A DNA stretch of 64,000 bases from Blasia pusilla (lineage: Eukaryota), in assembly GCA_050084515.1 (NCBI GenBank), contig CM114271.1, positions 30,938,001 to 31,002,000 on the forward strand, read 5' to 3'. A model generated the notes under the pieces. The model had not been told where the DNA came from and ran no database searches. It saw only the letters and a program-made list of their open reading frames with translations. Position 1 is the stretch's first letter; every line of letters starts with the position of its first letter. Positions 26,901-56,437 of the stretch are shown piece by piece. A program made the position numbers and the translations under genes.

Positions 26901-26945
26901 CAAAACAGCTCCTATAACTCCCAAGAAACTGGTGTTTTTGACACC
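23925..26945 (-). pseudogene. Element A pol 3' part: RT - RNase H - integrase - PHD finger
   Basis: RT: RRMCGDYRPIN...DLRTGYHQ...CYIDD. RNaseH: LGLGAVLTQ...VAYAS...YSSYEGECL...ARWALLLQEYDF. Integrase: HHCC finger, RWSLDF...FSKWIEL...TDQGIEF. PHD: CMLC..(Y)DGC..WHMAC...WMCPRC. Several stops and frameshifts. Confidence 0.92.
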
Positions 26946-26950
26946 GCTCT

Positions 26951-29900
26951 TGTCGCGACCCTCATAACCAAACAACACCAAATACGCGCCAAGCGAAACA
27001 TCAGAACTCAAAGGAACTCACGCCGCGAGGTTTGCGCTTTGGAGAGGCGTTTGGAAGAGTCTCTTGGAAAAGTCTAAGAGACGAAACGTGGAACAGAGTT
27101 GTGCGTTTCATGCGTTAGTGGTCGCGACCAGGAAACCTAGACCAAACGCGAGCCGAGACTTGAGATGAGTTGAGTCTCGGAGGTTGGTTGCCAAGGAGGT
27201 GAGAACCAGTTTGGAACACGGCTAGCGTTTGGGAGAATCTGACTGTGTTTAGGACCATAACGTTGAGCTCCGAGATGCGTTGGGGACAAGTAAGGGCGCG
27301 TTGGAAAGCTGATCTTGAGACGCTTCCAACGCACCAAAGATCTCAGCAAACGCATAAGTACAGGCTGAGATATTGGCCGAAAACGATTCAGAGAGCAATC
27401 GGGTTGAGGGCCAATTGGAGGGGCCCGGGTGTCTTTCCCTAAATGTAGGGGGCCCCCGGAGATCCCCAGAAGTACTAGTAAGGGGAGTACCTTCTCTGAG
27501 ATGTCTCGGGAAACGAAACCCCACTTTGGGCGCCAAACGGGCGTTTGAGGCACGGGATGAAACGGGAGTTTGCGCGGAAACCCCAAACCCAAACCTGATC
27601 CAAGGGAGTGGACTTTTACGCCACACTTGGATTCCAACCGAGATTCACCGTGCGAGTCTTGGTGAGGAACTCATTGGATGTTCATCGGACATTGGAACCG
27701 CTTAGGCGCTAAACGCCGTTTCAGGTTCCTGAACCGACCAGAAAGTCTGTCCCAAGTCTTTCGAGACTTGCCCGTGTTGGAAACCGCGAAACTAGGAAGG
27801 TTGAGCTTGAAGAGAGAGTCCGAGACGAGAACTCGGAAAGTAATCCCGCTGATTGATCCAAGACCCGACTAACCGAAGTGCGTGTTTGGATGCAGATCAG
27901 CGTTGAGAGCGTGACCATCGAACGCGACGCTTCCGCAACAAACAAGATTAACGTTCAAGGAGAGTAGGCGCACGACACGTGATATATCGAGCAATTCCTT
28001 GATGAGCGTGAACTTGGGGTTGTTGAAGATCTGGACGTTTGGGGAGAACTCAAGGTAGCCGGAAGACCGCGACGCCGAGGAGGAACGCAAGAGGCGAGGA
28101 GGAGATCTGAGAAAAGGCGACGACTCGCAAATGGCGACCAAGGACGAAGAACCGAGGAAACCGCGAGTCAAAGCAAAGAAGCCAAGAGACGAATCAATGA
28201 CGGACCGAGAGCCGAGAGGTGGAATTTGCGACTCGAAGTGCGAGTCCCGGACATGAGGATGTTCCAACCGAAAATCTTTCAGCGGGACCTTCGGGTCCAA
28301 ACTTAAACGATCCGGCCTTTTATACCCAAATGATGGGATTGATGAAGGTGGTGGCGGACCAGATGGCTGAACAGAGCAAGGTGATCTCGGAATTCAAGTC
28401 AAATGGAGCCTCTAGCTCGGCAAGAAGCTTTGTAAGACTAATTTGCCAACGCCATTCAGAATGGGGCGTTTCGAAAGTGAGCGAAGTTTCTAACGGAACT
28501 CGAACTCTATTTCAGCGCAAAAGCGATGAACAAGACAAGGTGATCAGAGCGGTCACGTTTCAAGGATCACGCTCTCCATTGGTGGACGGCTCACCGGAAA
28601 GAACATCTAGGTCGTGGGAAAACGTTGAGTTGGGAAGATTTCAAGGAGTTGATTGGGAACCGATTCACTCCGAATATCGGAGTACCGCGATGGCATGGAG
28701 GTGGTGAGGTTGCGCCGAGTGGATCACTTGGTGCTTATGTGCGAGAGTTTAGTGCGCTCATGAGTGCACTTTCCACGGACGAACATACTAAAAGGTGATC
28801 TTCCTAAGTGGGCTCAAACCGAGTGCCAAGAAGGCTCTCTTTCGTATGCCTCACATCCCGCAGACGCGCGGACCTCTTGAGACTAGCCGAGCGGATTGGG
28901 GACGATGAAGTCCAACACCCAAACCCTTTGAGACAAAAAGTTTTTCTAAGTTCTGAAGAATAAAGGGACATCCAAGAGGGTTTGGAATGGGGGTGAGAGC
29001 GACCACGAGGGTCTCTCCGGCCGCTAAACGAAAGTGGAACTCAACGCGAAGCGAAGGGCCGCCGTTCACGAAGTCAACGAATGCCAAAGTGATTTGTTAT
29101 AATTGTGGCGAACCCGGGCATATGGCTAAGGAATGTGTGAGGCCCAAGGTTAGTAAACCGAGTATGATTGCGTTTGCCGCTAAGCATTTATCGGAGGGAG
29201 ATCTAGATACATCTCTACAAGTCACCAAGAGAACGCCCAATTTGGTTTACCTAGGATCCAAGATCGCTAATCGCGATGTGATGTTGCTCGTTGATACAGG
29301 TGCTTCACACTCATTCTTGAGTTCGAGAATCCTAAAAACGTTGGGATTGCCAACCACCAAAGCGGATGAACCCATTAGGGTAGGATTCGCGGGAGGAAAA
29401 TCCCACCAGACATAAGATCTGGTTTTAGGGCTAGTTGTGAGATGCGGAGTATTTGAGTTGAAGGAGAATTTTACAGTTTGCGAGATGGACGGTATCGACG
29501 GAGTCTTGGGGAACACGTTCTTGGATGCGTATGAGGTGGAACTGAGGCGGAGACCTTTGAGGTTAAGCGTCTTGGTTAACGGCAAACGGACGGACGTCGA
29601 TTGGTTCGTGAGGTGCCTAGAAAGACGGAGTTGGTGAACGCCATCACGAGGACGAGTTTGGCCGAGTTAGAGGAAGGATTCCTTTGCTTGATGAGACGAG
29701 TAGAGGATGATGCAAGCGCAAGATGCAGAGATCAGAACTCAGCTTCAAGGGAGATCCCTGAAACACTCAAGAGAGTTGTGAAAGAATTTGAAGATGTGTT
29801 GACTAAGGAGCTTCCGACGAGTTGCCACCACATAGGCGGTTGATCATAAGATTGAGGTGATACCAGGATCTCAACCACCTTCAAAGGCACCATATAGGTT

Positions 29901-32900
29901 GAATCAAGAGGAACTTGCTGAGTTGAAGAAACAGTTGGGTGAACTCCTAGAGAGGGGTTACATCCGAACGAGCAAGTCACCTTATGGGGCGCCCGTCCTC
30001 TTTGTCAAGAAGAAGGATGGGAAGTTGAGACTCTGTGTTGATTATCGGGCGCTGAATAAAGTGACGGTAAGGAATAACTATCCTCTACCGAGGATGGATG
30101 ACCTCTTTGATCGATTGTCGGGTGCCAAGTATTTCAGCCGGATTGACCTGAAATCAGGATATTATCAGATTCGGATTGCCGAAGCGGATGTAGAGAAGAC
30201 TGCCTGTAGGACGAGAAACGGTTCGTTCGAGTTTGTAGTAATGCCTTTCGGTCTTTGTAATGCGCCTCCAACGTTTACCACTTTGATGAACTCCATCTTT
30301 CACAAGGAGACGGATGAGTTTGTGATCATCTATATAGATGACATACTCATCTATTCGAAAACACTAGAGGAGCACGCTTGACATTTGAAGACGGTGTTTG
30401 AGAAACTTAGGGCGAACAAGCTGTATGCGAATGTGGATAAGAGTGAGTTCGGTTTGACGAAGATCAAGTTCTTGGGACATGTGGTCAGTGCGGATGGAGT
30501 GAGTCCAGACATGGAAAAGGTGAGCGCGATTGCCGAATGGGAACCGCCTTCCACCGTGAAGGGGATGCGAAGGTTCATCGGAGCTGTCCAGTTTTACCGG
30601 ACATACGTGAAGAATTTTTCGGGCATAGTGAAACCTCTCACGGATTGGACCGCAAAGTTTGCCAATACTACATGGACCAAGGAAGTGGATAAAGCGTTCA
30701 ATCGAGTCAAAGAGATCCTCTCGCAGAACCGATTCAAAGCGCGGAGTTTGAACAACGCGTTCGAGGTGCACACGGATGCTAGTGATTTCGCGATTGCAGG
30801 AATGTTGGTGCAAAAGGAGACCAGAGCATACGAAAGCAAAAGCTGACCGACACCGAAAGGAGATGGCCTACTCATGAGAAAGAGTTGTTTGCGGTGGTTC
30901 ATTGCTTGAGGAAGTGGGCGTCACTATTTGGGACTTCACAGGACTCGAGTATTCACCGATAACATATCGCTCAAGTATTTTGAGACCAGGATCGCGTGGC
31001 GCCAAAACAACCGGTGGCATGATACCTTGGCGTTGATGAATGTGGAGCTAATCCACAAGCCGGGAAGGACAATGTCATTCCAGATCGTTAAGTCGCAGGA
31101 TGAACACATGCCATCGGCGACACAAGTGTTGAGAGCAATGTTCCCTAATGAAACAGATCTGGAAAGAAGGATTCGTGAAGGATACATGAAGGATGAGCAA
31201 GCGAGGGAGTACCTTGGGAAGTTAAAGCGGGGCGAGAAGGTGGCCAATCTGAGTTTGAGACACGGCTTGCTAAGGTTTAAGCAGAGCAGGATCTATGTAG
31301 GCCAAGGCAAGCTACGAACCAAGGTGTTTGTGGAATGTCATGATGGACCTTTGGCGGGACACAAAGGGAGAAATCCACTCTTCTGTTTTGTCTAAGAGGT
31401 TCTTCCGGCCCAACATGAAGGAAGATGTTGCTCAATATGTGAAAACATGCGTGACCTGCCAGGAGAACCGCGTGTCTTAGAGGAAGAAACAAGGTTTACT
31501 TCATCCTTTGCCAATCCCGGAGGGACCCTTGCAAAGCATTAGCATGGATTTCATTACGAGTCTTCCAGAATCTGAGGGATACAACGCTATACTTGTGATA
31601 GTTGATCGGTTTAGCAAGTTGGGGAGGTTTGTGCCGACGAGAGAGTCTGCGACGCCTCACGCGACTTCCGACTATTCCTGGATGGTTGGTGGCGTGCGCA
31701 CGGATTGCCTAGGAGCATTGTGTCCGATCGGGATCGAGGTTTACAAAGTGCCTTTTGGAAACATCTATTCAGGAGGTTCCGGACCAAACTCGGCTTTAGT
31801 ACGGCCTTCCATCCTCAAACGGATGGGCAAACGGAAAAAGTAAACTCGGTCGTAAAACCAATACTTACGGAATTACGTGAGTGCGGACCAAAGAGATTGG
31901 GCCAAGTGGTTTAAGTATGGCTGAGTATTGTTACAACTCGACTAAGCATTTCGCAACGGAGAATCTCCGTTTCTTCTGGCGTATCAAAGAGAACCAGAAG
32001 GGCCTCTTGACTTAGCTCTTTCGAAGGGCAATACATCGACACACACTCGTCAAGCAACGGCGGAATGTTTGTTAGTGGAAATGCAGGAACGACAAGAGCG
32101 AGCGAGAGAAAGTCTCGCCAAGGCTCAACTAAGGTACGTAAAGCATGCTAACAAAAGTCGGCGCCATGTGAGTTTCCAAGTTGGGGAACAAGTGTGGTTG
32201 AGTGTTAAGAATCTCACTCTTCCGAAAGAATTGTTCGAAATTGTCACCAAGTATCTTTGGACAGTATGTGATCAAGGCAAGGCCGTTTGAGGATGTGTAC
32301 ACGTTGAGCCGCCAAACGAAGTTCAAGATTCACCCGACTTTCCATGTGTCATTATTGAAGAAGTATCTTCAAGACAATGTGCGTCCGGAGCGAAGGAGGA
32401 TGTTGAGACCACAACCGGTCATCAGAAATGAGGAACCAGAGTTCGAGGTTGAGACTATTCTGCGTTCCAGACGTAGGGCCACCAAGTACGAGTACTTGGT
32501 CAAGTGGAAAGGCTATCATGTGAAAGAGGCGACTTGGATTGCGGAGGCGGATCTAGAACATGCGCAAGAAGCATTGCGTGACTTCAGATGGATGCAAGAG
32601 AGGCACACGCGTTAGTACATGGTGAAGCAATGGACATAACTTGTGACCGGAAAGCTTGGGCCGATAACCCGTTGTAACTAGAAAGGTTTAGTTGTTGCAA
32701 TAAAGAAGACATGGATTTGGAGATTCGATGCTTGTATTGTAATTTTGAGTTTGGTTTGTGCAAGGCAATGAGTAGTTCTTCATATGCTTAGGATGTAAGT
32801 CAAGGAGACCAAACAATGAGTATTTGAGGTGAGAGCTTGTATTCAGATAAGGCATCTAGATCAGGACCAAATGTTGAAGTACTAGCATTTGGGCTCGCCC

Positions 32901-34329
32901 TAACGTCGGCGAGGCAGATGAGTCTCTTGGGGTTTGTGGTGATCTCATTCATGTTTCATGACTGAACTTAGTGACGCGCCTAGGTGGAATACAGGTGACC
33001 CAAAAGTAGTATGAGTTGGCTAGGTAGACAAAGGTTGTTTACAAATAGTGAGTGAAGTGTTAGGTTGCAGACTTAGTGAGCTTATTTTGATAGTTAGATT
33101 AGTTTTGGAGAACTAGTCTAGGCTCATCGAAAAAGCGAAGCTAATAAGTCTAAGTCTTTGCAAGCGACAAACCTAAGACTTAAGCCAAAAGAGGAATTGC
33201 GGGTTAGCTACGTAACGCGATTATGTGTTAAGGGTCGGCTTCCCGAACTTAACATCAATAAGGTTTGCGTTGATGAGGACATCAACCTTCTAAGGAGGGG
33301 TGAGTGTCGCGACACTCATAACCAAACAACACCAAATACGCGCAAGCGAAACATCGAACTCAAAGGAACTCACGCCGCGAGGTTTGCGCTTTGAGAGGCG
33401 TTTGGAAGAGTCTCTTGAAAAGTCTAAGAGACTAAACGTGGAACAGAGTTGTGCGTTTCATGCGTTAGTGGTCGCGACCAGGAAACCTAGACCAAACGCG
33501 AGCGAGACTTGAGATGAGTTGAGTCTCGGAGGTTGGTTGCCAAGGAGGTGAGAACCGATTTGGAACACGGCTAGCGTTTGGGAGAATCTGACTGTGTTTA
33601 GGACCATAACGTTGAGCTCCGAGATGCGTTGGGGACAAGTAAGGGCGCGTTGGAAAGCTGATCTGGAGACGCTTCCAACGCACCAAAGATCTCAGCAAAC
33701 GCATAAGTACAGGCTGAGATATTGGCCGAAAACGATTCAGAGAGCAATCGGGTTGAGGGCCAATTGAGGGGCCCAGGTGTCTTTCCTAAATGTAGGGGGC
33801 CCCGGAGATCCCCAGAATTACTAGTAAGGGGAGTACCTTCTCTGAGATGTCTCGGGAAATGAAACCCCACTTTGGGCGCCAAACGGCGTTTCAGAGGCAC
33901 GGGATGAAACGGGAGTTTGGCGCGGAAACCCGAAACCCAAACCTGATCCAAGGGAGTGGACTTTGTACGCCACACTTGGATTCCAACCCGAGATTCACTT
34001 CGTGCGAGTCTTGGTGAGGAACTCATTGGATGTTCATCGGACAGTTGGAACCGCTAAGCGCGAAACGCCGTTTCAGGTTCCTGAACCGACCAGAAAGTCT
34101 GTCCCAAGTCTTTCGAGACTTGCCCGTGTTGGAAACCGCGAAACTAGGAAGGTTGAGCTTGAAGAGAGAGTCCGAGACGAGAACTCGGAAAGTAATCCCG
34201 CTGATTGATCCAAGACCCGACTAACCGAAGTGCGTGTTTGGATGCAGATCAGCGTTGAGAGCGTGACCTACTGAACGCACGCTTCCGCAACAAACAAGAT
34301 TAACGTTCAAGGAGAGTAGGCGCACGACA
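26951..34329 (+). mobile_element. Element C: full-length Ty3/Gypsy chromovirus (Galadriel/Tcn1-like) nested in element A
   Basis: LTRs 26951-27977 and 33305-34329 (TGTCGCG...CACGACA); perfect 5-bp TSD GCTCT; PPT AAGGAGGGG before the 3' LTR; a degenerate tRNA-Met-like PBS after the 5' LTR. Confidence 0.97.
28100..32615 (+). pseudogene. Element C gag-pol (frameshifted): Gag CCHC - protease - RT - RNaseH - integrase - chromodomain
   Basis: [36 protein letters not shown]...[30 protein letters not shown]...[32 protein letters not shown]...YLVKWKGY...ATW. Confidence 0.93.
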
Positions 34330-34699
34330 GCTCTCCTCTTGTCAACTTAGGGCCCATATGTGGCTCCCAAGTCTCCATAATGACTATGGTAGGACTCTCC
34401 GGCGTGGATGTCGGCGGTTGCTATGGTGCAACCCCGTCTCGGACAATAGAACTCTCATCTCCACGTGCAGTACCCGGAACTACGCTCGATGCTGTGGCTA
34501 TCATCTCCTGGCATACGTGCAAAACATCCCAAGAAGTCCAAGGGTATCTCTCCCAATCACCTCTGGTGTGTCGATCTCCTTGGGTCTTGCCCCTAGCCAC
34601 TACCTCAACCGTCTCGATAGGCATGGGGCTCACCAACACAACTTTTGTGATATGTTGCATCCCCAAATGACGTTGCTCAGCTACTCCTAAGCTCAAAAT

Positions 34700-35580
34700 C
34701 CATGTCAAACAGTTCAGGTCCATCGCTTGACCCAAGACATGACGTCGTGATGCCTCTGATAGTGACGGTACTGTCGTCACTCCTGTGGGGAATCCCATCA
34801 CTTGCTCTCGCTCATCGACGTTGGGCTCCACCAACCTCTGTATCTGGTCATCCCAAACCAAGCCAGGTCCGACCTCCTTGAATGCATAGGAAGCAGGAAA
34901 ACTCACCAATGTGGGAAAGGCTTCTCGTGGCATGCCAATCTTGTTGACCACAGTCAATGGCAATCGATCATCATGCCTCACTGCCTGTGATCGATGGCCC
35001 GGATCCAATATAGAATCCACCAACAAATTGGAGGGACGCTCCACTCTCACATAAGCCCTCCTCAACACCTCATGTGGTACCAAGTTGGTCCATCAAAGAC
35101 GCACACCTGATGTGCACTCATCACCACGCGGGACCTTGAATCACCCAAAATTGGTATATTCTCCAAAATGTATGCTAGAGAATGAGGATGATGCTCATGT
35201 AAATGTCATAAGATCCGCATCATCTCCCAAAAAACCTGGACCGAGTGTCAGCTAACCCGCAACCTCATCCAACACTCGATTGGCCCTCACACGGCCAACC
35301 AGCAATGACCAAGTCTATGGTCCCTACCCCCTCCAAGTCCCTTGCGCCCCCAAAAATGAAATGTCCCTTGGTAGGGAACTCTGGTAACTCTGAATGGCGG
35401 ACGCAGACAACAAGTCAGGAAAACGGAGGCGTAACAGCGCCACATGGTGAAGTGAAGCACGCCTTGCAACATCATCAATCTCCACATTTAGGTACTGTTG
35501 CACGCGCACTCTAGCGTGCAAAACAACAACTAAACCAATGCTGATCCCTCCAAAGAGTTCCAACACCCAAATACCCTCCT
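34700..35580 (-). pseudogene. Element A C5 cytosine DNA methyltransferase domain (degenerate)
   Basis: Motif I VLELFGGIS, II VEID, IV DLVIAGWPC, VI YILENIP, IX/X EREQVMGFP...RRHVLGQAMD. The motif VIII region is deleted relative to element B. Confidence 0.88.
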
Positions 35581-35729
35581 CTGGGATGCACCACACAATC
35601 AGGATGATGTCTAAATGGGTCATAGCAGCACTCCTACCTATCTGGGGTTCCTCTGACCCGTCACACTCTAGTGCAAACATCTTGCTCCACGCGGTCTTCA
35701 CATGCTCAGTGGCTAAGCGTCGAAGCTCC

Positions 35730-36565
35730 TCAGTCGAGCCCCAAAGCGGCTACCATGCCACTCCTCTCCATAGAAATATCAAGAAAGGGAGTATCCTTTG
35801 CATGGACATGTCCCTCAATCAAATCACTAGGCCAAGTGATGGCACTGCTAGATGCTGTTAAGGTCACTGTCTCTCCTGGCCGTTGCTCGATCATTGCACT
35901 TGTGAATCGAACGGGTAATGAGCTAAGGCGCCCATCAGCTGAGTGCCATCTTGGTCTGTAGGACGCTGACTCCTCCAAGTAATCGAGGGAAAACCCCATC
36001 GAGTATAACATTGCTCCACCAACCAGGAGGTTGTAGGACTCTGCATCAATCACTGTCGCCTTGGCTCGTACCACAGACTCATCTATAGGATGTCCCGGGA
36101 GAATTCTCACCACGACCTCCTATCGGGTGATATATTGTGTGGTACACGCTCCACCCAAGGATGTCTGTATCCAGAATGGAAAACGCTCCACATCGGCTCT
36201 CGTCAAGCCCAATCCTCTAAATGACGCTTTCCCCAACATCACGGGTTTTGCTCTTGAATCCAACAAGACGCGCTGCGGACTAAAAGCTCTACCTCATGGA
36301 CTCACCAACTGGAAGACCTCTCCCCGATTATCCAGGGAAAAAAACACGAGGAAAAGCCATGGCACGCTCTATCACGGGTCTAGCGGGCATCTCCGCCATC
36401 CTAGCAGCCTACACGCTCCCCCTCGTGTGAAGATGACACAAAAGGAGATTGAGGTGGTCTCTCACGTGGAGACCCTCGAAACCTCGAGCCACTCCGGGTA
36501 AACCCTCCAGAGCTACTCTTAGGTCCACTACCTCGCCTCTCAAAATCCCGAAAGGACGCCATGAT
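35730..36565 (-). pseudogene. Element A gag N-terminal stub and aspartic protease
   Basis: The GGFTRSG stub matches the element B gag start (GGFTQSG). Protease reads RVLLDS(R)AKPVMLGK...YNLLVGG. Confidence 0.8.
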
Positions 36566-37928
36566 GGCCCTCGTGCCCCTCCCACATGATCAATCCCAAT
36601 CTCGCGAGTAATCCCTCACACATGCGGCACTCAATCTACACTCTCTCATTGAGATGTGTGTTGTGCGGCAACAAGCAATATGGTGCGGAAAATCAACTGA
36701 TCTATCATCTCATCGACAAACCATCCTCAACTCTGGACATCCCACACAGGTCTATCTCCCCTAAACCCATACATCATCGATGCTCATAGCATCAGCACGA
36801 AACCCAATATCCCAAATAACTTCCCAATACTCGAAAATCCCTCACAAGTGTAGGATAAGAGACCAGAATGGGTAACCTAAAAATAATGTCGATGTCGCTC
36901 CTCGGCAACTATAAATCTCAACCCCAACTTGGTCGTGAAGACAACTCCTCCAATCAGCAAGTCGTACTCCTCTCGTACTGACGCTGCTGAAACCTCCACA
37001 ATGTGCGGTGCAGGTCTAGCAGTCCGGTGCGGCAGTGGCGGCACGGAACGACTACAAACGACATGGCACTCGGGAATGGGATGCGGCACTCGACGGCATA
37101 CCCTCCTCAATCAGAAATTCACATGCTCTGCTTCTTAGTGAAGGAGCGGCTCCGTGATTAAGATTATCCCTCCCCTCTCCCAAGCTTTCTCCATGGTAAC
37201 CTATGCTCCCAAGTCACCTCCTTGGCTCTTAATCTGATGTAGGAGGCCAAGGGCCACTTACCAAAAATAGAAAATTGCCCATATATATTCAAAATGGTAC
37301 TAACCTAAAATAGTAAGTTACTCAATGTGGCTCTAAATGAGCCGAAACGAAGGGGGAACCTGCTCTCTCAGGTTTTCTAGGGCCTCAGTAGGTCATCCTC
37401 GACCTTCTCAGCCTGTCCTCCACTACTCGCGAAGGTGCTCTATTAGATCTCATCGATCTATCCTAAAAGACGTGAGTTGTATGGAAATGGACATGCGCAA
37501 CGGATCCTCTGCCCAAGTTTATTTGGTAACCCAATGGCTCGCGCAAGCTTGGGATACAAGAACGGGTGTGGGCTTAGATTAAGGGAGGCAAGCAGGCAGG
37601 AATTGGCCCGCCTTAAGCCCGCATCGGCTCAAGGCCCGCGGCTTGGGGTGGGTGCCAACCCAATGCGCCCTTGCGGACCTTGAGCTTGCCATATGGTCCA
37701 GATCGCAAACATGTGTGGGCTTGCCATAAGCTTAGGGAGGGCCAATACGGGCTACAAAACGGGTTACGGGAATGGGCTCGGAAACACGTTCCTTGATTGG
37801 GTATGAGCTAGTCGAGGTCTACATTGCAGGCATGGCGGACTCGGGTGTGGGTTGCGGCCCGCGAGTACCCAAGCCCGCACGGACATGGACATATCCGCGG
37901 ACACAGACTTTGTTTGTGTGCAACCTTG

Positions 37929-38080
37929 ATCGATTTCCCCACAATCCACCACTCCGAATCTTGAGTGACTTATATGGGATTGGATAATCACATATACAAT
38001 TTCGGCTGAATTAGTGCGAGCAACATTGTTTAAGGAGTTTTGTGACACACATGAATACTTGAGGGATGATCAAACCTGAG
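37929..38080 (+). pseudogene. PIF/Harbinger-like transposase fragment, continuation
   Basis: RF.HNPPLRILSDLYGIG continues the AVVIYRF helix-turn-helix once the MITE and element A are removed. Confidence 0.5.
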
Positions 38081-40527: not shown

Positions 40528-41110
40528 TATCGTGCGAATCCACATTGTCATACAACGTACATCGCTGACATACCATACTCACATACATACATAACATAGA
40601 CGAGAGCATCCACAAACACAAGTGTACCACAACTGAAATCCGTGAAAGACCTACTGTCATAAAACACGTATAGAATCACATACAATTGAGCCAAACCCAC
40701 TCCACGATGGGAGAATCCACGTTGAAGCTTGCGGGAACCACCATAGCCAAGAGCTCTACTCACTACCAAGGCTAACTCCCAACGCAACAGGCTCAACTCA
40801 AAGAACTAACTGTTCTTTGAGTGCACTCCACACTATATCCTCCAACCTAAGAGCGGGCCCTACTGGAAAAGTCACCCTCAACTAAGTAAACCCCAACCCT
40901 ATGTATGAAACCGCATCTCTACCTAGATACTACGGACCTACATAAGGTATGGCCTCTACTAGCACACTATACTCTACGACATAATCCGTATGGTCATGAC
41001 AACTGTCGTGCGAATCCACATCATCATACAACATACATCGCTCACATACCATACTCACAAACATACATAACATAGATGAGAGCATCCACAAACACAAGTG
41101 TACCACAACT
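40528..41110 (-). repeat. Element B 3' split repeat block B1-A2-B2
   Basis: A 107-bp unit occurs at both 40528 and 41004, flanking a 368-bp unit that recurs alone at 47653-48020. Confidence 0.93.
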
Positions 41111-41120
41111 CGCCCCCCTA
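41111..41120 (-). promoter_or_regulatory. Polypurine-tract-like G-run immediately upstream of repeat B1
   Basis: Sense-strand TAGGGGGGCG abuts B1. The same motif occurs in element A at 23743-23752. Confidence 0.65.
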
Positions 41121-41282
41121 ACTGGCGGTTAGGTCCCTCTAACTCCCAGAAAGCCCTATACATCTACTACATGCTATACACCTTCTTGGGTACACGAATC
41201 AGAAGGCCGGGTGCTAGGTTGCCCCATCGTTAGTCGCCCATCTATAATCCTTATCATGCAAAGATCAAGTCATCTACCTCTC

Positions 41283-42389
41283 CTAAGTACATCAAGGACA
41301 AACCCACCTTCCAGTAGGAACAACATCCATACGTGGAGTCAAACACATCATGTGCCAACCTCTAGAACACCGATCACACACCAACATACGAGCTGCGTTA
41401 CCAACAGACCCACACAACATGCACCTTAAGGTAGCACGTATCATGGCTAAGCTTGGGTCAACAATACCATCCATATTTGGAAGATGACATGGCGCACAAT
41501 TACGCACATGGTCCTTCCAAACAACTCCATCACGACCCTCCAACATGAGAACTCCAGAAGATAACACCTCGCGCACTTGTAAAATAGTGCGGCTTGCCGT
41601 CACATCCAACGTTGTCGATGCAATCTGCTGCAAATAGACATAGTTCCCCATATGGAACCTATGACTCGATGGTCGATAACCTCCACCCCGAATGGTTGCA
41701 TACCGCAACGTATCCCTATGTTGAGCAATGGCAAGATTCTCAAAGGCTATTGGCATAACTCTCCGAAAGAGCTCTGCCCGCTGAGAACACACTCTCATCC
41801 ACATCTCTGGGTCATCAAGGTTCACCACCTCACTAGACTCTCGACGAATTGATGCAAGAAAGTCTGGATCTCGGCCGTATAACAAAAAATAAGATGAGAA
41901 GGAAGCCAAGGATGTTTGGCGACTGAACCTATACCCCATGGCTAACCATGGCAACTGAATATCCCAGTCTCCAAGATGCCCCTTCTGTAGGCCATACTTG
42001 CACAATGCCCTCTTCACCGTCTGAACCACACGCTCAGCCAAACCATCCGCCTCTGGATGATCTCGAGATGTGGTTTGATGATCAATCAACGCCTTGTCAC
42101 ACAAGACCTGAAACTCACCCTGAAACTATGTACCCTGGTCGGTCAGCACTTCAGCTAGTGCACCAAAATGACTAAGCACACTATCAGAAACGCATACGCC
42201 GTTCCCTCACTTGCCTTGTCAGGTAATGCCACCAATTCAATCCACTTGGAGAAGTGCTCCACCATCACCAACATATATCAATGATGTCGTACAGTCAACG
42301 GTAACAGTTCTGCAAAGTCCACACTCCAACGGTAACCCAACCCCATAATAGGCAAGGGGTGTAACTGTGGTGTAGGGGCATTGAATGAT
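41283..42389 (-). pseudogene. Element B integrase core + PHD finger
   Basis: PQLHPLPIMGLGYRWSVDF...; DHPEADGLAERVVQTVK; C4HC3 PHD CMLC...CDRC...WHMMC...WVCP*C (TGA likely from CGA). Confidence 0.9.
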
Positions 42390-42390
42390 G

Positions 42391-43325
42391 GTCAAAAAAT
42401 TCAGGTCCATGGCCTGACCCAACACATGACGTCGTGAAGCCTCAGAAATGGAAGCAACCGCTGTCACACCAGTAGCAAATCCCATCGCAAGCTCTCTCTC
42501 ATCAGCGTTAGGCTCCACCAACTATCGCACATGAGAATCCCATACAAGCTCGGGACCACCTTCCCTGTAGGCATGTGACGAGGGAAAACTCACAAATGTG
42601 GGTAGTGCCATCCTAGGCTGGCCCACACGGTTCACCACTGCCATGGATGACCGATCAATAACCCTCACCACTTTAGAAAGTTGCCCAGTATTCAAGATAC
42701 TATCCACTGTAAGGCAAGGATCCCGTTGCACTGCATCATATGCTCGACGTAGAACCTCCCTAGGCAACAATTTTTTCCACCACAAGCGTGGACGATGTGC
42801 ACGCGAGCCAACTCGCGCTGCATCCAACAATACCGCTGGTCCAATCCAAGACCGCACCTCATGAACACTCGCCATCATCCGGGTCCGAGTGTCACCCAAC
42901 AATGGAACATTCTCCAGAATGTAAGCACATGCCTGATGAACCTGAAGATGTCGTAACACCCGTAACATCTCCCAAAATAATCGAGACCTAGGGTCGTGGA
43001 ATCCCTCACCATGACCAGCACGTGTATGACCGTGACATGGCCATCCAGCAATCACCAAATCCACAGGACCAACCCTTTCAAGGTTCTGCGCCCCCAACAA
43101 TGCAATGTGTGACGGTAAAGCACGCTGGTACCCACGAATAGTTGATGGCGGCAACAACTCAAGATATCTCCACATCAAGTGACCAATATGTCGGGATGAG
43201 ACTCTCTGGGCCGTCTCATCTGGCTCCACATACACGTATCTCTGCGCAGGAATACCGGTCTGCAACACTGCAGCAAAACCAGTGCTAATCCCACCAAAGA
43301 GATCTAACACACAAATGCCCTCCGG
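42391..43325 (-). pseudogene. Element B C5 cytosine DNA methyltransferase domain (all catalytic motifs present; one internal TAG)
   Basis: I LDLFGGISTG; II YVYVEPD; IV DLVIAGWPC; V LFWEMLRVL; VI YILENV; VIII DAA...AHRPRLWW; IX-X ERELAMGF...RRHVLGQAMD. Motif order and wording are DNMT3-like. Confidence 0.93.
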
Positions 43326-46180
43326 CGGATACTACCATACAATGGATGTAGTATCCAAAGGGGATAACCCAACTGGACCAGAAGTAGGGGTCCGCCGTGG
43401 GGCCTCCTCTTCCTCGTGAGTTATAACAGCCTCACACCAAGCCTCATGCACTAGGCAATGAGCCTCTTTCCGTAGTGCACCGCCTGAACTCCCAAGTGGC
43501 ACATCCAACGACAAGGATGCCACTGCTGCAATACTAGGGACCTCCTCTACCTCCTCATGCACAAGAGAATCCATAGCAGAAAGATTACCCTCCAAAAAGT
43601 CTCCTGGCCAAGTGACTACTCCACTAAAACCAGCCATAGATGCTAACACCATTGGGCAAGACCCTCCTTGTCGAGCCCCATAAATAAATCTCACAGGAAC
43701 GTGGCTCATACATCCATCCCCGGACTGCCAACCAGGTCTATAAGACGCTGTCTCAGTCCAATAGTCCATCTGAAAACCCATCGGGTACAATAGTGCTCCT
43801 CCAACTAGTACATCATACGACTTGGCTGATGTGACCACTGTAGGTACTCCCAACCGGGAGCTATCAGTCGCATGATCTGGTCTCAACTGTACAGAGAACT
43901 TCTCCCGTGTCATGAATTGAGACCTATCATTGGCTCCTCCAAGTGATGTTTGAATCTGGAATGGGCAAGGCTCAAGCTCTGACCTCCGAATACCCAAACC
44001 AATACATGCCGCCTTTCCCAACATCAAAGGTTGGGCACCAGAGTCTAACAAGACTCTATTTGGTCTATACACCTGTCTTGTAGGACTCACCAATCGGAAT
44101 ATCCCACTCCGGTTGTCCAACATACATATACCAAGTGTAAGCCTCTCACGATCAATGGCTGGCCGGGCTAGTAATGCATCCATCTTTGCCGTTGCTGCTT
44201 GCCAAGTAGCACTGGTACTCAATGCTACACTTGACATAGAGGGTTGCTCCACCACAACACCCTCATCCACCTCAGCACGTGTAGCAATAACACCCCCATG
44301 TTCATACAACGTGGCTGCTAGCTGAAATACAGGAGCTAAGTCAACTCCTAAAGCCATCAGCTCCGTGGCCGAAAATAATGAGGATCCCAACATTGAAGTT
44401 GCCATCCGCAATATTGCACTAGATGATGCATCCGTGTCTACTACACGTGATGTAGATGCCTCAGTCCCCAATGTAGGCTCAATAGGCTGCGTAGGAACCA
44501 TGGATGAAGTCCTAAGCACCTCAAACAACAAGAATGACTGGGGAAGCCTAACCTGCCTCCGAGCCTCACCCCTCTATGGGTCCAACTCCATAGTAGCACC
44601 ACGTGGCTCTGACGCTTGAGTGGCTCCTCTCGTAACTCCATCTGATGCCTCAACCTATGCTGCACTCGCCATATAAGAGAGATCATCCCCTCCATAAGAG
44701 GTGGAAGCCCCTGCTCCCGAACCTGCTCTATGTTGGATACGAGCCATAGTAGCCAACTTCTGCTCCAACAACTCAATCGTGGCAGCCATAGCTGACTCTG
44801 TCGTAGTGGTAGGGGTAGCCACCGTAGGCTCTCCAAACACTGGTCCACCTCTACCACCTCGGCCTCTTGGAGCTACTCCACCATGGCCGCGGCCTGATCT
44901 CAACTCTAGATGAAGATCAAAGCAACGCTCTCGAGGATGACCTGGTCTCCCGCAATGATCACACTAAGTTGGGGCCGACTGAGGCCCATCCTCTTGGGGA
45001 CAAAACCTCCTAACATGATCACCTCCACATGTCCAACATGACTGTCCTTGCTCCGGGGCAGCAAATGAAGGCAATGGTCTCTCTGCAAGTGTCCCTCTAC
45101 GACCTGACTGAGGTCGTGTGTACCCCCCACGACTCTCACTACTACTACCACCACCACTACTGCGAGACTGTGAGGTGGACTGCTGAACACGAGAAGTAGT
45201 AGGTGTATCCCTACTGAATGTGGATGTCACCACTCTCTCCTCCACCATGTTAAGCTCAATCTTCTCAGATAGAGCAAACACATGGGTCAATGTGGGTGAA
45301 TCATCACTCATAAGAGTAGCATCACGTACCCTGCGGTGCAACTCTCTGTCCAAGATCCCATACCAAAACTGGACTTCCTGAGCCTCAGTCACACCTTGGG
45401 TAACTGAAATCAAGTGTCGCATACGAGTGTATGCCTCACAAAGACTCTTACCAGTCTTTCGCTCAAATTCTTGGAGACTCCTCAACTTCTCTGTCTTCAC
45501 TCCCTGATAGTTCTTCTTCAACCTCTTGAAGAACTCTGCAACCAGGCTGAATGATGGTGGGGCACTAGTACCTCCACTAGTACCCCCACTGGTATCTCCA
45601 TGGGTACGTCCACTGGTACTCCCACTTCGGCTCATACTTGTACCACTCAACCTCGGGCTGGCTTGCATAGTAGGAGCACTACTACAAATACCACCATGGG
45701 TGATAGACACATAACCTGGAGACCAATATTGTCTCCACACCTCAATCTGAGCAACATGGTCCTTCCTAAACTCATGGTTATCATCCATGGGTGGTCCCTC
45801 CAAGTGCTGAAACAACCCCTTCCAAGCCAAGAAGGGTGTAAACAACGTGGCGTTCCGCAACATCTGTATATCACACCACGTATCAAACTCTTGCATAAAG
45901 TCCTCCAACTCAATGGTGCCCACTGCACTCGAGTATCGTGTGGGCCCTTCATGGCCCCATATATCCTGTCCATGTCCCAAATCAATGGAGCTACAACACT
46001 CGATAACAACATAGAAGACTCGGTTTTTGGAACACCCTCATCCTCCTCTTCATCAACCGTCGGAAGTGGAAAAGGTAGCCGATACCTCAATCCACTTTGT
46101 GTAAAACCACCACTATCCACACCACGGTCCCCAACTACACCACTAGACAACTCCGTGATGACCAATGCCAATGCCGCACC
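43326..46180 (-). pseudogene. Element B gag (two zinc knuckles) and aspartic protease, in frame with the DNMT
   Basis: CWTCGGDHVRRFC and CDHCGRPGHPRERC knuckles; RVLLDSGAQPLMLG...YDVLVGG protease. ORFs 44964, 44655, 43332, 42522 and 42237 share one frame. Confidence 0.88.
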
Positions 46181-47652
46181 ACCACCAAATTACCACCACT
46201 AAGTAACCAAGTGACGTCGATGTCACTGTACTATTCTAGCTCTACTAGCTATGGGTATAGGCAACCTAACATGTCATCACCACAAGAAGCCTCCCACGGT
46301 CTACTGGTCATCACGCCAGCCTAACTACCGGTAGCACACAGGAGTAACACTACTCTGGAAATCAGCGTCAACCCTAACAATGGCGCGCAAGCAAGAAGCA
46401 ACGATGGAAGGGATCCAAACACAGGGAGTCCAACGACAAGCCTCCAATCGCAAATGGAAATCAAGGTAACACAATCCACCAAACATGGCGCCCCCTGAAT
46501 CCACAGAACCCACCACACAATTCTAACGCAATAGCTACTCTGCCGCGGGTTGATGATGTGCTAGTCGGACTCGCAGCACTTGAAAATATCACCTACATGG
46601 AGAGGCTACACTGTACTATGCGCTAGAGGTCCATCAACCAAAAACCTGAGATGCATAAAGCGCCTAACACATCTCCGAATAACACCAAATGAGCTACACG
46701 AGTGTGTACACTGGCATAGTTAAGAACTCAGCAGTTAAGCGTCTTCTAGGAAGAATAGCCCAAAGATGGGTGACCAGTTATGCAACACTCAAATCACAAA
46801 TCCTGCAAAAACTGCCTCACGCCCAAGCAAGCAAGCTTGCTCCTTACTCCGCCTCTCACGCCCACTCGCCCCGAGCTACCACGAGTTGCCTTGAAGCTTC
46901 GAAATGCTCAAGACATGCCCCGTTCGCCATGCTTCGCTATGGAGAGAGGCCCAACCAGGCTGCCCCCAACGGGATAGGCGTCTCCAACAACAGACGAATC
47001 ACCAACCAACCAGCCCCTCCGATCTGCTGTCCACCATAACCAGACCTTGAGCTAGTCCGCAAAATTTTGATCAAAAATTACTCCACAAATCCTCAACAAA
47101 AATTGAATCTATTTCAACCAGAATTCAATTGGCTACCATAGTTATCTCTCCACAAAAAATCAACTACAACAGAGCTCTGTACTCTGAGCTAAAAATCAGA
47201 CAAACTTGCTGTCCATACACCTCAAGAATCGCAAATCCGACAGCACTTCCGCCTAGATTCATGCACACAGAAATCCACAACGCTCCACACACTCAAGTAG
47301 ATAGCTTCACATGAGATCACAATACAAGTAGCAAGAGGAACCTCTCACCCAATCTGGATGAACTTCAACAGAGCTTCCGCACTCCAAGCTCTCCATATCA
47401 GAAAACCGTCGAACACGAAACAAAATCTTCAATCCTTGATAACTTCCAACTCCCTTGACAAAATCCGGCGATCTAAAGCGCGTTGGAAAGCTCTCAGCAA
47501 GACGCTTCTTTCCCAATCAACCACGCACTAGATTCCTACCTCCAGCATAGGCCACAAGCCACGAACATCCACGGCTGAGTACACAATCAGCCCTAACTAG
47601 ATCCTATTGATCCACAATCAAAGCTACCATCGATCTACTCTAGTTCTTTGAG

Positions 47653-48020
47653 TGAAATCCGTGAAAGACCTATTGTCATAAAACATGTATAGAATCACAT
47701 ACAATCGAGCCAAACCCACTCCACGAAGGGAGAATTCAGGTCAAAGCTTGCGGGAACCACCATAGCCAAGAGCTCTACTCACTACCAAGGCTAACTCCCA
47801 ACGCAACAGGCTCAACTCAAAGAACTTACTGTTCTTTGAGTGCACTCCACACTATATCCTCCAACCTAAGAGCGGGCCCTACTGAAAAAGTCACCCTCAA
47901 CTAAGTAACCCCCAATCCTATGTATGAAACCGCATCTCTACCTAGATACTACAGCCCTACATAAGGTATGGCCTCTACTAGCACACTATACTCTACGACA
48001 TAATCCTTATGGTCATGACA
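47653..48020 (-). repeat. Element B 5' repeat A1
   Basis: Near-identical direct copy of 40634-41001. It is not accompanied by a B unit. Confidence 0.93.
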
Positions 48021-48197
48021 CCCCCTTCCAACCCATCCCTTCATGTGTACATGATATTTATTTTGTATAGACAATAATTTAACACTTTCGGTGTTAAACA
48101 AGTGATATACCAAGAAATGACAACATTCATTATTATTTACACACAATCAATAATGTCCCCACATGATGGTTGAAATCCAAGTTGAGAGGGATTGGAG

Positions 48198-56400: not shown

Positions 56401-56437
56401 TACTCACAAACGCTGATTTTTTTCTACAAGAGTTATT

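What the first reader, a model, noticed from the sequence alone, without database searches (positions are those of the whole stretch)
40528..48020. DDE-integrase retrotransposon with split direct repeats (A...B-A-B) instead of two LTRs: a permuted-LTR, circle-integrating element?
Seen: in sense orientation element B is A1(368 bp)-ORFs-PPT-B1(107 bp)-A2-B2. Element A, whose A repeat has a different sequence, has the same B1-A2-B2 block (23740-22975) and only an A copy at its 5' end. The outer ends of element A are independently fixed by the split hAT MITE and a GTTG duplication, so B2 really is part of the element. Established: A1...B1-A2-B2 split repeats are the hallmark of tyrosine-recombinase retroelements (PAT/TOC1/Ngaro types), whereas this family encodes a Gypsy-type HHCC/DDE integrase. 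I see no tyrosine recombinase. Inference: B starts right after the PPT and A ends right before the primer site, so normal reverse transcription would give a linear cDNA with LTR = B-A. Circularising it (..B-A-B-A..) and cutting at the att junction inside one LTR yields exactly A...B-A-B. I do not know of a described Gypsy lineage with this layout, but cannot search.
Basis: partly seen in the sequence, partly recalled or inferred. Interest (0 to 1): 0.92.

Follow-up and report, generated by a model that had tools for sequence, protein, structure and literature searches.

The report
Gypsy retrotransposon with split terminal repeats
Two decayed copies of a plant Gypsy-type retrotransposon that carries its own DNA methyltransferase show an odd A...B-A-B repeat layout; that layout was already noted in 2018 for a green alga, but how it arises has not been explained.

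Summary
Element B (40528-48020, minus strand) reads A1-internal-PPT-B1-NN-A2-B2. Element A (22975-37475) has the same 3' block and only an A copy at its 5' end. Both encode gag-PR-C5 DNMT-RT-RNaseH-H2C2/DDE integrase-PHD, and no tyrosine recombinase was found.

The layout is a family trait. Nine distinct metagenome relatives carry B-A-B after pol, and 0 of 10 readable 5' ends has B before A1.

- Termini are inverted (TGTCATG...CA[C/T]GACA).
- The B1-A2 joint is CA-NN-TG, palindromic in consensus.
- 4-bp target duplications flank the ends (21 of 28 positions match, P=4e-8).
- A G-run PPT abuts B1.
- The sequence just after A1 complements a segment about 31 nt past a TATA box in A, which suggests Tf1-like self-priming.

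Reverse transcription should therefore give LTR = B-A, and the integrated copy is a permutation of that product. The circle or end-joined-cDNA route stays an inference.

The layout is not new. de Mendoza et al. 2018 (PMC5890265, Fig. 4c legend) describe KnitGypsy-Dnmt3 of Klebsormidium with DIRS-like repeats and Gypsy domains. This is a new member of a known kind, with an open mechanism.

The parts
40528..48020 (-). Element B, whole: A1-internal-PPT-B1-GT-A2-B2. A degenerate copy lacking RT/RNase H.
   Evidence: The frames are broken. RT/RH are missing at 42390/42391 relative to element A and to expressed copies (loose ends).
48021..48024 (.). Target-site duplication, 5' copy of element B (sense GGGG). 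The 3' copy is 40524-40527 (sense TGGG).
   Evidence: 3 of 4 positions match.
47653..48020 (-). A1 of element B (368 nt). It starts TGTCATG.
47852..47857 (-). TATA-like motif in A1 (A position 164).
   Evidence: That it acts as a promoter is an inference.
47815..47826 (-). 12-nt segment in A1 (A position 195-206), 31 nt after the TATA-like motif. It is the exact reverse complement of 47642-47653 and is the candidate 5' end of the RNA, acting as self-primer.
   Evidence: 12-nt exact match, reached by 0 of 1000 shuffles.
47642..47653 (-). Primer-binding position at and just after the end of A1.
44946..45038 (-). gag zinc knuckles (two CCHC).
   Evidence: Translation; positions.
44031..44051 (-). 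Protease active-site motif (LLDSGAQ).
42522..43331 (-). C5 DNA methyltransferase domain, with motifs DLFGG, GWPC and ENV.
   Evidence: Pfam PF00145, E=8.7e-10. Motifs.
42033..42331 (-). Integrase core remnant.
   Evidence: rve hit with E=0.0066, below the Pfam cut-off. It is homologous to element A's rve region.
41288..41423 (-). PHD finger at the C-terminus of pol.
   Evidence: PF00628, E=5.4e-9.
41111..41124 (-). G-run polypurine tract directly before B1.
   Evidence: The same arrangement is seen in element A and in 9 of 9 relatives examined.
41004..41110 (-). B1 of element B. It ends ...CACGACA.
41002..41003 (-). 2-nt spacer (GT) of the CA-NN-TG joint between B1 and A2.
40635..41001 (-). 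A2 of element B.
40528..40634 (-). B2 of element B. Its end reads CACGATA.
22975..37475 (-). Element A, whole. It carries RT, RNase H, integrase and PHD, and is split by a nested chromovirus.
37165..37475 (-). A1 of element A. It is partial: its start lacks TG, and the 3' ~208 nt of A are absent.
37476..37479 (.). Target-site duplication CAAC, 5' copy. The 3' copy is 22971-22974. It lies at the end of a MITE-like repeat.
34712..36266 (-). Protease and DNMT region of element A, in broken frames.
   Evidence: Motifs. blastn to element B. No Pfam hit reached threshold.
23928..26670 (-). RVT_1, RT_RNaseH, Integrase_H2C2, rve and PHD of element A.
   Evidence: E=2e-26, 1.2e-28, 4.3e-11, 1.7e-9 and 4.5e-6 respectively.
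23741..23753 (-). G-run PPT of element A.
22975..23740 (-). B1 (23615-23740) - GC - A2 (23099-23612) - B2 (22975-23098) block of element A.
17500..18830 (-). Third, fragmentary copy: the 3' internal part plus an A2-like piece, with weak B-like hits at 18128-18166 and 17500-17531.

Best explanation
WHAT IT IS (shown). Two old, broken copies, plus one fragment, of a high-copy Ty3/Gypsy-type retrotransposon of the streptophyte 'Gypsy-DNMT3' kind. A single gag-pol reading frame encodes CCHC gag, aspartic protease, a C5 DNA methyltransferase, RT, RNase H, H2C2 + DD35E integrase and a C-terminal PHD finger. The integrated element is A1-leader-ORF-PPT-B1-NN-A2-B2. Its outer ends are short inverted repeats (TGTCATG...CA[C/T]GACA), flanked by a 4-bp target duplication. 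This is the signature of a DDE integrase, not of a tyrosine recombinase.

HOW IT WORKS (inferred).
1. Transcription starts about 30 nt after a TATA box inside A1.
2. The first 12-15 nt of the RNA pair with the sequence that directly follows A1 and prime minus-strand synthesis, as in Tf1.
3. The G-run directly before B1 primes the plus strand.
4. Ordinary strand transfers then give a linear cDNA [B-NN-A]-internal-[B-NN-A]. The real reverse-transcription LTR is therefore B-A, and each LTR holds an internal CA-NN-TG joint.
5. That joint is two integrase-type ends fused back to back with the usual 2-nt overhang in between.
6. The integrase does not use the cDNA tips. It opens the joint of the upstream LTR.
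7. The natural cDNA tips (A end and B start) are joined to each other, either as a two-LTR circle or by end-joining. That joining creates the A2|B2 junction.
8. The result is A1-internal-B1-NN-A2|B2.

B2, which is GT/T-rich, may also serve as a built-in downstream terminator for the RNA that ends in or after A2. This last point is speculative.
For: Coding and identity
- Pfam domains in the window.
- Intact relatives have one ORF of 1928-2703 aa (four scanned) with PR, DNMT, RT, RH, H2C2 and rve in all four. A zf-CCHC hit appears in two and a PHD hit in two. None has a Phage_integrase hit.
- None of the 120 listed homologues carries PF00589.
- D2001, D2062 and E2097 are invariant in the 12 aligned polyproteins, with D-35-E spacing.
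- The best solved relatives are Ty3 Gag-Pol 7q5b (E=3.5e-101) and Ty3 RT 4ol8.

Family trait
- B-A-B follows directly after pol in 9 distinct metagenome loci: L002, L003, L013 (=L012), L014, L016, L018, L020, L064 and L005.
- A1 was also found in L013, L018 and L005.
- 0 of 10 readable 5' ends (8 loci plus 2 in the window) has B before A1 or B right after A1.

Termini and target duplication
- A starts TGTCATG and B ends CA[C/T]GACA. The B1-A2 spacing is always 2 nt, in 9 of 9 loci plus 2 of 2 window copies.
- 4-bp duplication: 21 of 28 positions match in the 7 elements with both ends, against a background rate of 0.25. Binomial P=4e-8.

Reverse-transcription landmarks
- A G-run sits directly before B1 in all elements examined.
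- The complement of the post-A1 sequence lies about 31 nt after the TATA motif. Exact matches of 15, 15, 13 and 12 nt occur in L005, L013, L015 and element B, reached by 0-1 of 1000 shuffles.
- The two subfamilies use different sequences but keep the pairing.

Repeat ages
- A1/A2 and B1/B2 have decayed equally within each element: 96/94%, 88/89.5%, 89.6/88.3% and 84/88%.
- B1 and B2 copies do not form position-specific clades. All four repeats were therefore alike at insertion.

RNA
- Two stranded RNA runs cover the element in sense orientation. Depth is 4-7 over 47776-48042, 120-200 across PPT-B1 and the A2 5' part, 42-64 over the A2 3' part and the B2 start, and 0.3-0.6 at the B2 end and flank.

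Precedent for the chemistry
- Retroviral integrases cleave the palindromic LTR-LTR junction of two-LTR circles (PMC1180852, PMC1905944, PMC4372172). I saw only the search listings and abstract starts.
Against: - No circle or end-joined cDNA was observed.
- A two-LTR circle has two identical CA-NN-TG joints, so A-B-A-internal-B products are expected. None was seen at 10 5' ends. The model needs an added asymmetry, for example that the upstream LTR becomes double-stranded first. That is pure inference.
- Ten distinct relatives have only A-internal-B or a single B after pol: L001, L022, L023, L019, L009 (=L007), L010, L024, L017, L055 and L034. These could be B1 x B2 deletion products. They could equally be primary products of cutting both joints, which would change the model.
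- The exact-match self-primer test fails in 5 of 9 elements, with best matches of 7-8 nt reached by 138-500 of 1000 shuffles. Pairing there is seen only by eye, with 1-2 substitutions.
- One of 7 target duplications fails (L001, 1 of 4 positions). Element A needs a missing TG at its 5' end.
- The transcription start and poly(A) site are not mapped. A cluster of 29 fragment ends at 40840 in one RNA run (X22 only) lies upstream of the predicted start position within A. If it were the poly(A) site, no R region would remain.
- The length variation at the A2|B2 joint lies in low-complexity sequence and may be ordinary indel decay.
Confidence: 0.45

Rival explanations
1. DIRS/PAT-like route with the recombinase swapped for a DDE integrase. 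The RNA runs from inside A1 into B2. The internal B1-A2 block serves as template to rebuild the missing outer parts of A1 and B2 by template switching. This gives a linear (or circular) cDNA that already carries A...B-A-B. The integrase then uses the outermost TG...CA ends. The A2|B2 joint is simply inherited.
For: - The layout is identical to PAT/Ngaro split direct repeats, which the authors of PMC5890265 also note.
- It explains without extra assumptions why only A...B-A-B and never A-B-A...B is seen (0 of 10).
- RNA depth of 42-64 continues through the A2 3' part toward B2.
Against: - A primer-binding position exactly at the A1 end and a G-run exactly at the B1 start are what an ordinary LTR (= B-A) needs. 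This route does not require them.
- After the first strand transfer from A1 to A2, nothing would copy the B2 tail of the RNA.
- RNA depth is near zero at the distal B2.
Confidence: 0.25
2. The primary integrated product is the repeat-less unit A-internal-B, made when integrase cuts the joints in both LTRs of the linear cDNA. A...B-A-B copies arise secondarily, by co-integration or ligation of the small A|B fragment or by recombination between copies.
For: - A-internal-B or single-B 3' ends are as common as B-A-B among relatives (10 versus 9 distinct loci).
- One of them (L022) has a 3-of-4 target duplication.
- A solo A-B unit exists (L034 430-797).
Against: - An A-internal-B copy has no terminal redundancy, so its RNA could not regenerate full ends and the lineage would die out.
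- All 3 copies in the window, and KnitGypsy-Dnmt3 as drawn by its authors (legend), carry B-A-B.
- Deletion between the 105-180-nt B repeats only 300-500 nt apart is an easy way to make A-internal-B from A...B-A-B. It parallels solo-LTR formation.
Confidence: 0.1
3. The layout is an accident: tandem insertion, local deletion or mis-assembly of ordinary two-LTR elements.
For: Both window copies are old and broken.
Against: - The same block occurs in 3 copies here and in 9 distinct contigs from other assemblies, and it is published for Klebsormidium.
- Target duplications flank the A1 start and the B2 end.
- An ordinary chromovirus nested in element A has two plain 1036-nt LTRs in the same assembly.
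Confidence: 0.02

Closest known systems
KnitGypsy-Dnmt3 / streptophyte 'Gypsy-DNMT3' (Klebsormidium nitens; de Mendoza et al. 2018, PMC5890265)
   Same: - A Dnmt3-type C5 methyltransferase sits inside the pol ORF of a Gypsy element.
- The Fig. 4c legend says the repeat structure is that of a DIRS element (A-coding-B-A-B) while the domains are Gypsy (section 9 read).
- A 2026 preprint (10.64898/2026.05.21.726589; passages read) lists 'streptophytes (Gypsy-DNMT3)' as previously described.
   Different: - The host differs. The flanking U-box/ARM gene is closest to Marchantia proteins at 55-56% identity, and the window's non-repeat DNA is 35-45% GC.
- No K. nitens sequence was at hand, so relatedness is untested.
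- In the text I could read, the paper gives no termini, target duplication, priming sites or mechanism. Its figures and supplements were not visible to me.
PAT-like / Ngaro / DIRS tyrosine-recombinase retroelements
   Same: Split direct repeats A1...B1-A2-B2. My account of their proposed replication is from memory, not from a call.
   Different: - They encode a tyrosine recombinase and make no target duplication (recalled).
- Here there is H2C2 + DD35E integrase, no PF00589 hit and a 4-bp duplication.
Tf1/sushi-type self-priming Ty3/Gypsy elements, including the plant Tcn1 clade (Neumann et al. 2019, PMC6317226; passages read)
   Same: There is no tRNA-type PBS. The sequence next to the 5' repeat is complementary to a segment that should be the 5' end of the RNA.
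   Different: - Tf1-type elements have two ordinary LTRs and a chromodomain.
- Here the repeats are permuted, a PHD finger replaces the chromodomain, and a DNMT is inserted.
- Phylogenetic relation to Tcn1/Tf1 was not tested.
Integrase cleavage of the palindromic LTR-LTR junction of retroviral two-LTR circles (PFV, HIV-1; PMC1180852, PMC1905944, PMC4372172; listing and abstract starts only)
   Same: A DDE integrase cuts an internal palindrome made of two viral ends placed back to back.
   Different: - In retroviruses the junction forms only on circularisation and is a side route.
- Here a CA-NN-TG joint sits inside every LTR, is copied by reverse transcription, and seems to be the regular attachment site.
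- The spacer is 2 nt here, against 4 nt in retroviral junctions (the retroviral value is recalled).

Membership tests
Ty3/Gypsy (Metaviridae) LTR retrotransposon | pol order PR-RT-RNase H-integrase | tested here: met
   Element A: RVT_1, RT_RNaseH, Integrase_H2C2 and rve, in that order. The same order holds in 4 intact relatives. The best solved match is Ty3 Gag-Pol, E=3.5e-101.
Ty3/Gypsy (Metaviridae) LTR retrotransposon | H2C2 zinc domain plus DD35E integrase core | tested here: met
   PF17921 and PF00665 hits. D2001, D2062 and E2097 are invariant in 12 aligned polyproteins.
Ty3/Gypsy (Metaviridae) LTR retrotransposon | Two identical long terminal repeats at the two ends | tested here: not met
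   The 5' end carries A only and the 3' end carries B-A-B. The LTR inferred from the priming sites (B-A) is present intact only once.
Ty3/Gypsy (Metaviridae) LTR retrotransposon | TG...CA ends and a 4-6-bp target duplication | tested here: met
   TGTCATG...CA[C/T]GACA ends. 21 of 28 duplication positions match in 7 elements.
Ty3/Gypsy (Metaviridae) LTR retrotransposon | PBS next to the 5' repeat and PPT next to the 3' repeat | tested here: met
   A G-run precedes B1 in all elements examined. A self-primer-type complement lies at the A1 end in 4 of 9 elements by exact match. No tRNA-type PBS was seen.
Gypsy-DNMT3 (KnitGypsy-Dnmt3) | C5 DNMT domain inside the pol ORF | tested here: met
   PF00145 lies between PR and RT. 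Motifs DLFGG, GWPC and ENV are present.
Gypsy-DNMT3 (KnitGypsy-Dnmt3) | DIRS-like A-coding-B-A-B repeats | tested here: met
   The defining statement is in PMC5890265.
Gypsy-DNMT3 (KnitGypsy-Dnmt3) | Sequence relatedness to the Klebsormidium copies; DNMT of the Dnmt3 clade | not testable with these tools
DIRS order (PAT-like / Ngaro) | Tyrosine recombinase ORF | tested here: not met
   No PF00589 hit in three sense frames of element B or in the sense frames of element A outside the nested insertion. None in 4 intact polyproteins or in the domain lists of 120 homologues.
DIRS order (PAT-like / Ngaro) | Split direct repeats A1...B1-A2-B2 | tested here: met
DIRS order (PAT-like / Ngaro) | Insertion without target-site duplication (recalled feature) | tested here: not met
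   A 4-bp duplication is present, P=4e-8.
Tf1/sushi self-priming group | 5' end of the RNA complementary to the PBS | tested here: inconclusive
   The complementarity is strong in 4 of 9 elements and lies about 31 nt after a TATA motif. The RNA 5' end itself was not mapped.

The most novel reading that the evidence does not exclude
A Ty3/Gypsy lineage whose DDE integrase regularly uses an attachment site buried inside the LTR. That site is a CA-NN-TG joint of two fused ends, copied by reverse transcription. Every insertion is therefore an inside-out permutation of the cDNA, made through an end-joined or circular intermediate. The extra B2 would double as a built-in terminator. If so, the DIRS-type repeat layout evolved convergently without a tyrosine recombinase, and the old circle-junction model of retroviral integration would be the normal route in a natural element.
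Probability: 0.35. Interest if true: 0.8.

Novelty: new member of a known kind. Interest (0 to 1): 0.55.

Why it matters
Split A...B-A-B repeats are treated as a diagnostic of tyrosine-recombinase retroelements. Here they occur with a DDE integrase, inverted TG...CA ends and 4-bp target duplications. Classifiers and LTR finders that expect two equal LTRs will therefore miss or misfile this abundant family.

The 2018 report noted the layout in a figure legend and gave no mechanism. The priming sites, the CA-NN-TG joint and the target duplications found here turn the puzzle into a testable question. Does this integrase work on an internal joint of a circular or end-joined cDNA?

The family is transcribed in the host. 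It also occurs in a land-plant-like genome and in Closterium (named hit P0038). This widens the range of retrotransposons that carry their own cytosine methyltransferase.

Tried and rejected
- Whole genome of the window: not held. A census of all genomic copies was therefore impossible, and metagenome loci and laid reads were used instead.
- Earlier notes of this scan: nothing found by place, words or sequence.
- Split hAT MITE claim: flank-to-flank blast found no inverted repeats joining the two flanks of element A. A MITE-like repeat abuts the 5' end only. Its superfamily was not established.
- tRNA-type PBS: none seen by eye after A1 in the window or in relatives. No systematic tRNA scan was run.
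- DNA contigs of the host (X1, X5) gave no usable evidence on alternative layouts. The A1/A2 and B1/B2 'joints' listed are cross-mapping between the repeat copies. The five B|A joints at 40629-40634 / 47661-47686 have sides of only 20-28 letters.
- No listed holder of the stretch was on record as RNA. RNA evidence comes only from the laid raw-read runs X22 and X23.
- L034 was examined as a possible A-B-A-internal-B product. It is a solo A-B unit followed by unrelated DNA and a 5'-truncated copy.
- The B-copy tree is star-like and resolves little (23 inner branches, 2 well supported).
- Literature: searches 'KnitGypsy', 'split direct repeats/gypsy/DDE/moss' and 'retrotransposon-encoded/DNMT3/Gypsy/bryophytes/Klebsormidium' found no paper beyond PMC5890265 that describes this layout. 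None gives a mechanism for it. Subscription journals are not covered.
- Supplements and figures of PMC5890265 could not be seen and may hold more on the repeats.

Full report
OBSERVATION

Self-comparison confirms the layout of element B.
- A2 40634-41001 matches A1 47653-48020 (368 nt, 95.9%).
- B2 40530-40634 matches B1 41006-41110 (105 nt, 94.3%).
- Read on the minus strand, the element is A1 - leader/ORFs - G-run - B1 - GT - A2 - B2.

Element A has the same 3' block.
- B1 23617-23740 matches B2 22977-23098 (89.5%).
- Only 297 of about 514 nt of A2 find a partner in A1 (37165-37461, 88.2%).
- No B lies before either A1.
- A third fragment (17500-18830) has weak B-like hits 635 nt apart.

The 26 nt placed inside its 5' end are the terminus of a MITE-like repeat that also occurs at 48202-48533. 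The element is therefore 22975-37475, flanked by CAAC/CAAC.

CODING CAPACITY

- Element A gives RVT_1, RT_RNaseH, Integrase_H2C2, rve and PHD, in that order.
- Element B gives C5 DNA_methylase and PHD above threshold, and an rve remnant below it.
- Its translation also shows two CCHC knuckles, the protease motif and DNMT motifs I, IV and VI.
- Element B has lost about 2.3 kb holding RT/RNase H at 42390/42391.
- Intact relatives are single ORFs of 1928-2703 aa (four scanned). All four carry PR, DNMT, RT, RH, H2C2 and rve. A zf-CCHC hit appears in two and a PHD hit in two.
- No Phage_integrase hit appeared in any frame scanned or in the 4 intact proteins. None appears in the domain lists of the 120 listed homologues.
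- D, D and E are invariant, with 35-residue D-E spacing, in 12 aligned polyproteins.
- The best solved relative is Ty3 Gag-Pol (E=3.5e-101).

THE LAYOUT IS A FAMILY TRAIT

A scan of metagenome contigs with the 12-protein alignment matched 575 stretches, of which 561 were confirmed as relatives. The best 80 were kept as loci. I analysed 34 of them for 3' repeats. I then analysed 27 of them (26 targets plus the L013 reference) with A and B probes from L013.

3' ends:
- Nine distinct loci carry B-A-B directly after pol: L002, L003, L013 (same locus as L012), L014, L016 (B2 cut by the contig end), L018, L020, L064 and L005 (B2 internally deleted).
- L011 is cut inside A2.
- Ten distinct loci have a single B followed by unrelated DNA: L001, L022, L023, L019, L009 (=L007), L010, L024, L017, L055 and L034.
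- Three loci had no A or B hit: L004, L006 and L045.

5' ends:
- Eight loci show a readable 5' end: L001, L005, L013, L015, L018, L021, L022 and L023.
- With the two window copies, that makes 10 ends. In 0 of 10 does B precede A1 or directly follow it.

That test is not met.

TERMINI AND TARGET DUPLICATION

- A begins TGTCATG and B ends CA[C/T]GACA, so the outer ends are 7-nt inverted repeats.
- The B1-A2 joint is always CA-NN-TG, with NN = GC, GC, AC, AC, AT, GT, GC, GT, AC in relatives and GT, GC in the window.
- In its consensus form, CATGACA-GC-TGTCATG, the joint is a 16-nt palindrome.
- In the 7 elements with both ends, the 4 nt before A1 and after the last B match at 21 of 28 positions. 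The values are 4, 4, 3, 3, 3, 3 and 1 of 4, against a background rate of 0.25 (binomial P=4e-8).
- L023 was left out because its first ~6 nt are missing.
- Inverted TG...CA ends with a 4-bp duplication are what a DDE integrase makes, not a tyrosine recombinase.

REVERSE-TRANSCRIPTION LANDMARKS

- A G-run lies directly before B1 in both window copies and in all 9 relatives examined.
- No tRNA-type PBS follows A1.
- Instead, the 12-15 nt at and after the A1 end are the exact reverse complement of a segment inside A. That segment lies about 31 nt after a TATA motif.
- The exact matches are 15 nt in L005 and L013, 13 nt in L015 and 12 nt in element B, reached by 0-1 of 1000 shuffles.
- In the other 5 of 9 elements the exact-match test is not significant. 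The homologous segments pair only with 1-2 substitutions, judged by eye.
- The two subfamilies use different sequences but keep the pairing (AGTTTTTCTAGAATT versus AGTTCTTTGAGT).
- This is the arrangement known for Tf1/sushi self-priming elements and the plant Tcn1 clade (PMC6317226; passages read).

By the usual rules the LTR made by reverse transcription runs from the B start to the A end.

AGE OF THE REPEATS

Within each element, the A pair and the B pair have decayed alike.
- Element B: 96% and 94%.
- Element A: 88% and 89.5%.
- L013: 89.6% and 88.3%.
- L018: 84% and 88%.

B1 and B2 copies do not form position-specific clades, although the tree is poorly resolved. All four repeats were therefore alike at insertion.

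READS

- The family is very abundant in DNA contigs of the host species (157,436 pieces laid from run X1).
- Two stranded RNA runs cover it in sense orientation.
- Depth is 3.8-6.7 over 47776-48042 and 12-26 over 47509-47775.
- Depth is 120-200 from 41634 through B1 into the A2 5' part, and 42-64 over 40567-40833.
- Depth is 0.3-0.6 over 40300-40566.
- This fits a start inside A1 and an end in the A2 3' part or early B2, but neither end is mapped.
- A cluster of 29 fragment ends at 40840 in X22 alone would conflict with the predicted start if it were a poly(A) site.
- Loose ends show that the expressed copies keep RT/RNase H.
- The DNA joints listed are cross-mapping between repeat copies and say nothing on alternative layouts.

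MECHANISM

Shown:
- DDE-type ends and target duplications.
- Priming sites that define LTR = B-A.
- Integrated copies that are a circular permutation of [B-A]-internal-[B-A].

Inferred:
- The integrase opens the CA-NN-TG joint of the upstream LTR.
- Cutting after both CA dinucleotides would leave two ends, each with the usual 2-nt 5' overhang.
- The natural cDNA tips are joined to form A2|B2, in a two-LTR circle or by end-joining.
- The A2|B2 joint consists of the A end plus 0-3 nt of the primer site, followed by the B start. It varies in length between copies, while the B1-A2 spacing never does.
- That variation lies in low-complexity sequence, so it is weak evidence.
- Retroviral integrases can cut palindromic LTR-LTR junctions (PMC1180852, PMC1905944, PMC4372172; listings and abstract starts only).

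The weak points are the missing A-B-A-internal-B product (0 of 10), the many A-internal-B copies, and the lack of any direct view of circles.

The main rival is a DIRS-like route, in which the RNA reaches B2 and the ends are rebuilt by template switching. It explains the missing product. It makes the exact placement of the two priming sites a coincidence.

WHAT IS KNOWN

de Mendoza et al. 2018 (PMC5890265; section 9 and the Fig. 4 legend read) describe KnitGypsy-Dnmt3 of Klebsormidium nitens. It carries a Dnmt3-type DNMT in the pol ORF of a Gypsy element. [quoted passage not shown]

A 2026 preprint cites 'streptophytes (Gypsy-DNMT3)' as known. Three further searches found no paper that explains the layout. 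The figures and supplements of the 2018 paper were not visible to me.

The host here is a different streptophyte.
- A flanking U-box/ARM gene is nearest to Marchantia proteins at 55-56% identity.
- The closest polyproteins in the protein collection are only 45% identical.
- One named relative comes from Closterium (P0038).

VERDICT

The claim that no such Gypsy lineage is described is wrong. The finding is a new member of a known kind.

Its value lies in the open mechanism. The termini, target duplications, CA-NN-TG joint and self-priming site found here give a concrete, testable model of inside-out integration by a DDE integrase. I put that model at about 0.35-0.45.

Noticed in passing
window 26951-34329 (+): An ordinary chromovirus is nested inside element A. 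It has Ty3/Gypsy domains (CCHC gag, PR, RT, RNase H, H2C2) plus a chromodomain, and two plain 1036-nt LTRs that are 96.8% alike. It serves as an internal control showing that normal two-LTR elements assemble correctly here.
   Followed up: partly
window 48202-48533; 37476-37932; 16678-16751: A MITE-like repeat with GTTGCAC-type ends and a GC-rich core. Element A is inserted at its last 4 bp. The superfamily was not determined.
   Followed up: partly
window 52649-57550 (+): Helitron-like ORFs: Helitron_like_N (E=2.3e-7) and PIF1 helicase (E=7.3e-15).
   Followed up: no
window 5366-8714 (-): A host gene for a plant U-box / ARM-repeat E3 ligase. The nearest named proteins are from Marchantia, at 55-56% identity.
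   Followed up: partly
window 40680/40968: RNA reads in two runs (5 and 6 reads, 4-5 start places) join A position ~322 to A position ~34 ('goes back 289', with 4-nt overlap). This could be an A-A tandem or duplicated A in expressed copies, or another junction form. It remains unexplained.
   Followed up: no
window 41674/45894: RNA reads in two runs skip 4219 nt, from gag to just before the PHD finger, without GT-AG ends. This probably reflects transcripts of internally deleted copies.
   Followed up: no
window 42390/42391, 41110, 41146: Loose ends of RNA reads show that the expressed copies keep the RT/RNase H region that element B has lost. They also carry an element-A-type B start.
   Followed up: partly
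P0085-P0092, P0106: Some Gypsy polyproteins among the homologues carry PF05869 (Dam-type adenine methylase) together with a PHD finger. They match the DAM-LTR class of the 2026 preprint read.
   Followed up: no
L034 430-797: A solo A-B unit, the analogue of a solo LTR. It lies next to a 5'-truncated copy that ends in a single B.
   Followed up: partly
L001-L023 leaders, about 120-300 nt after A1: A variable run of GTTGYTR-type short tandem repeats in the 5' leader of the metagenome relatives.
   Followed up: no
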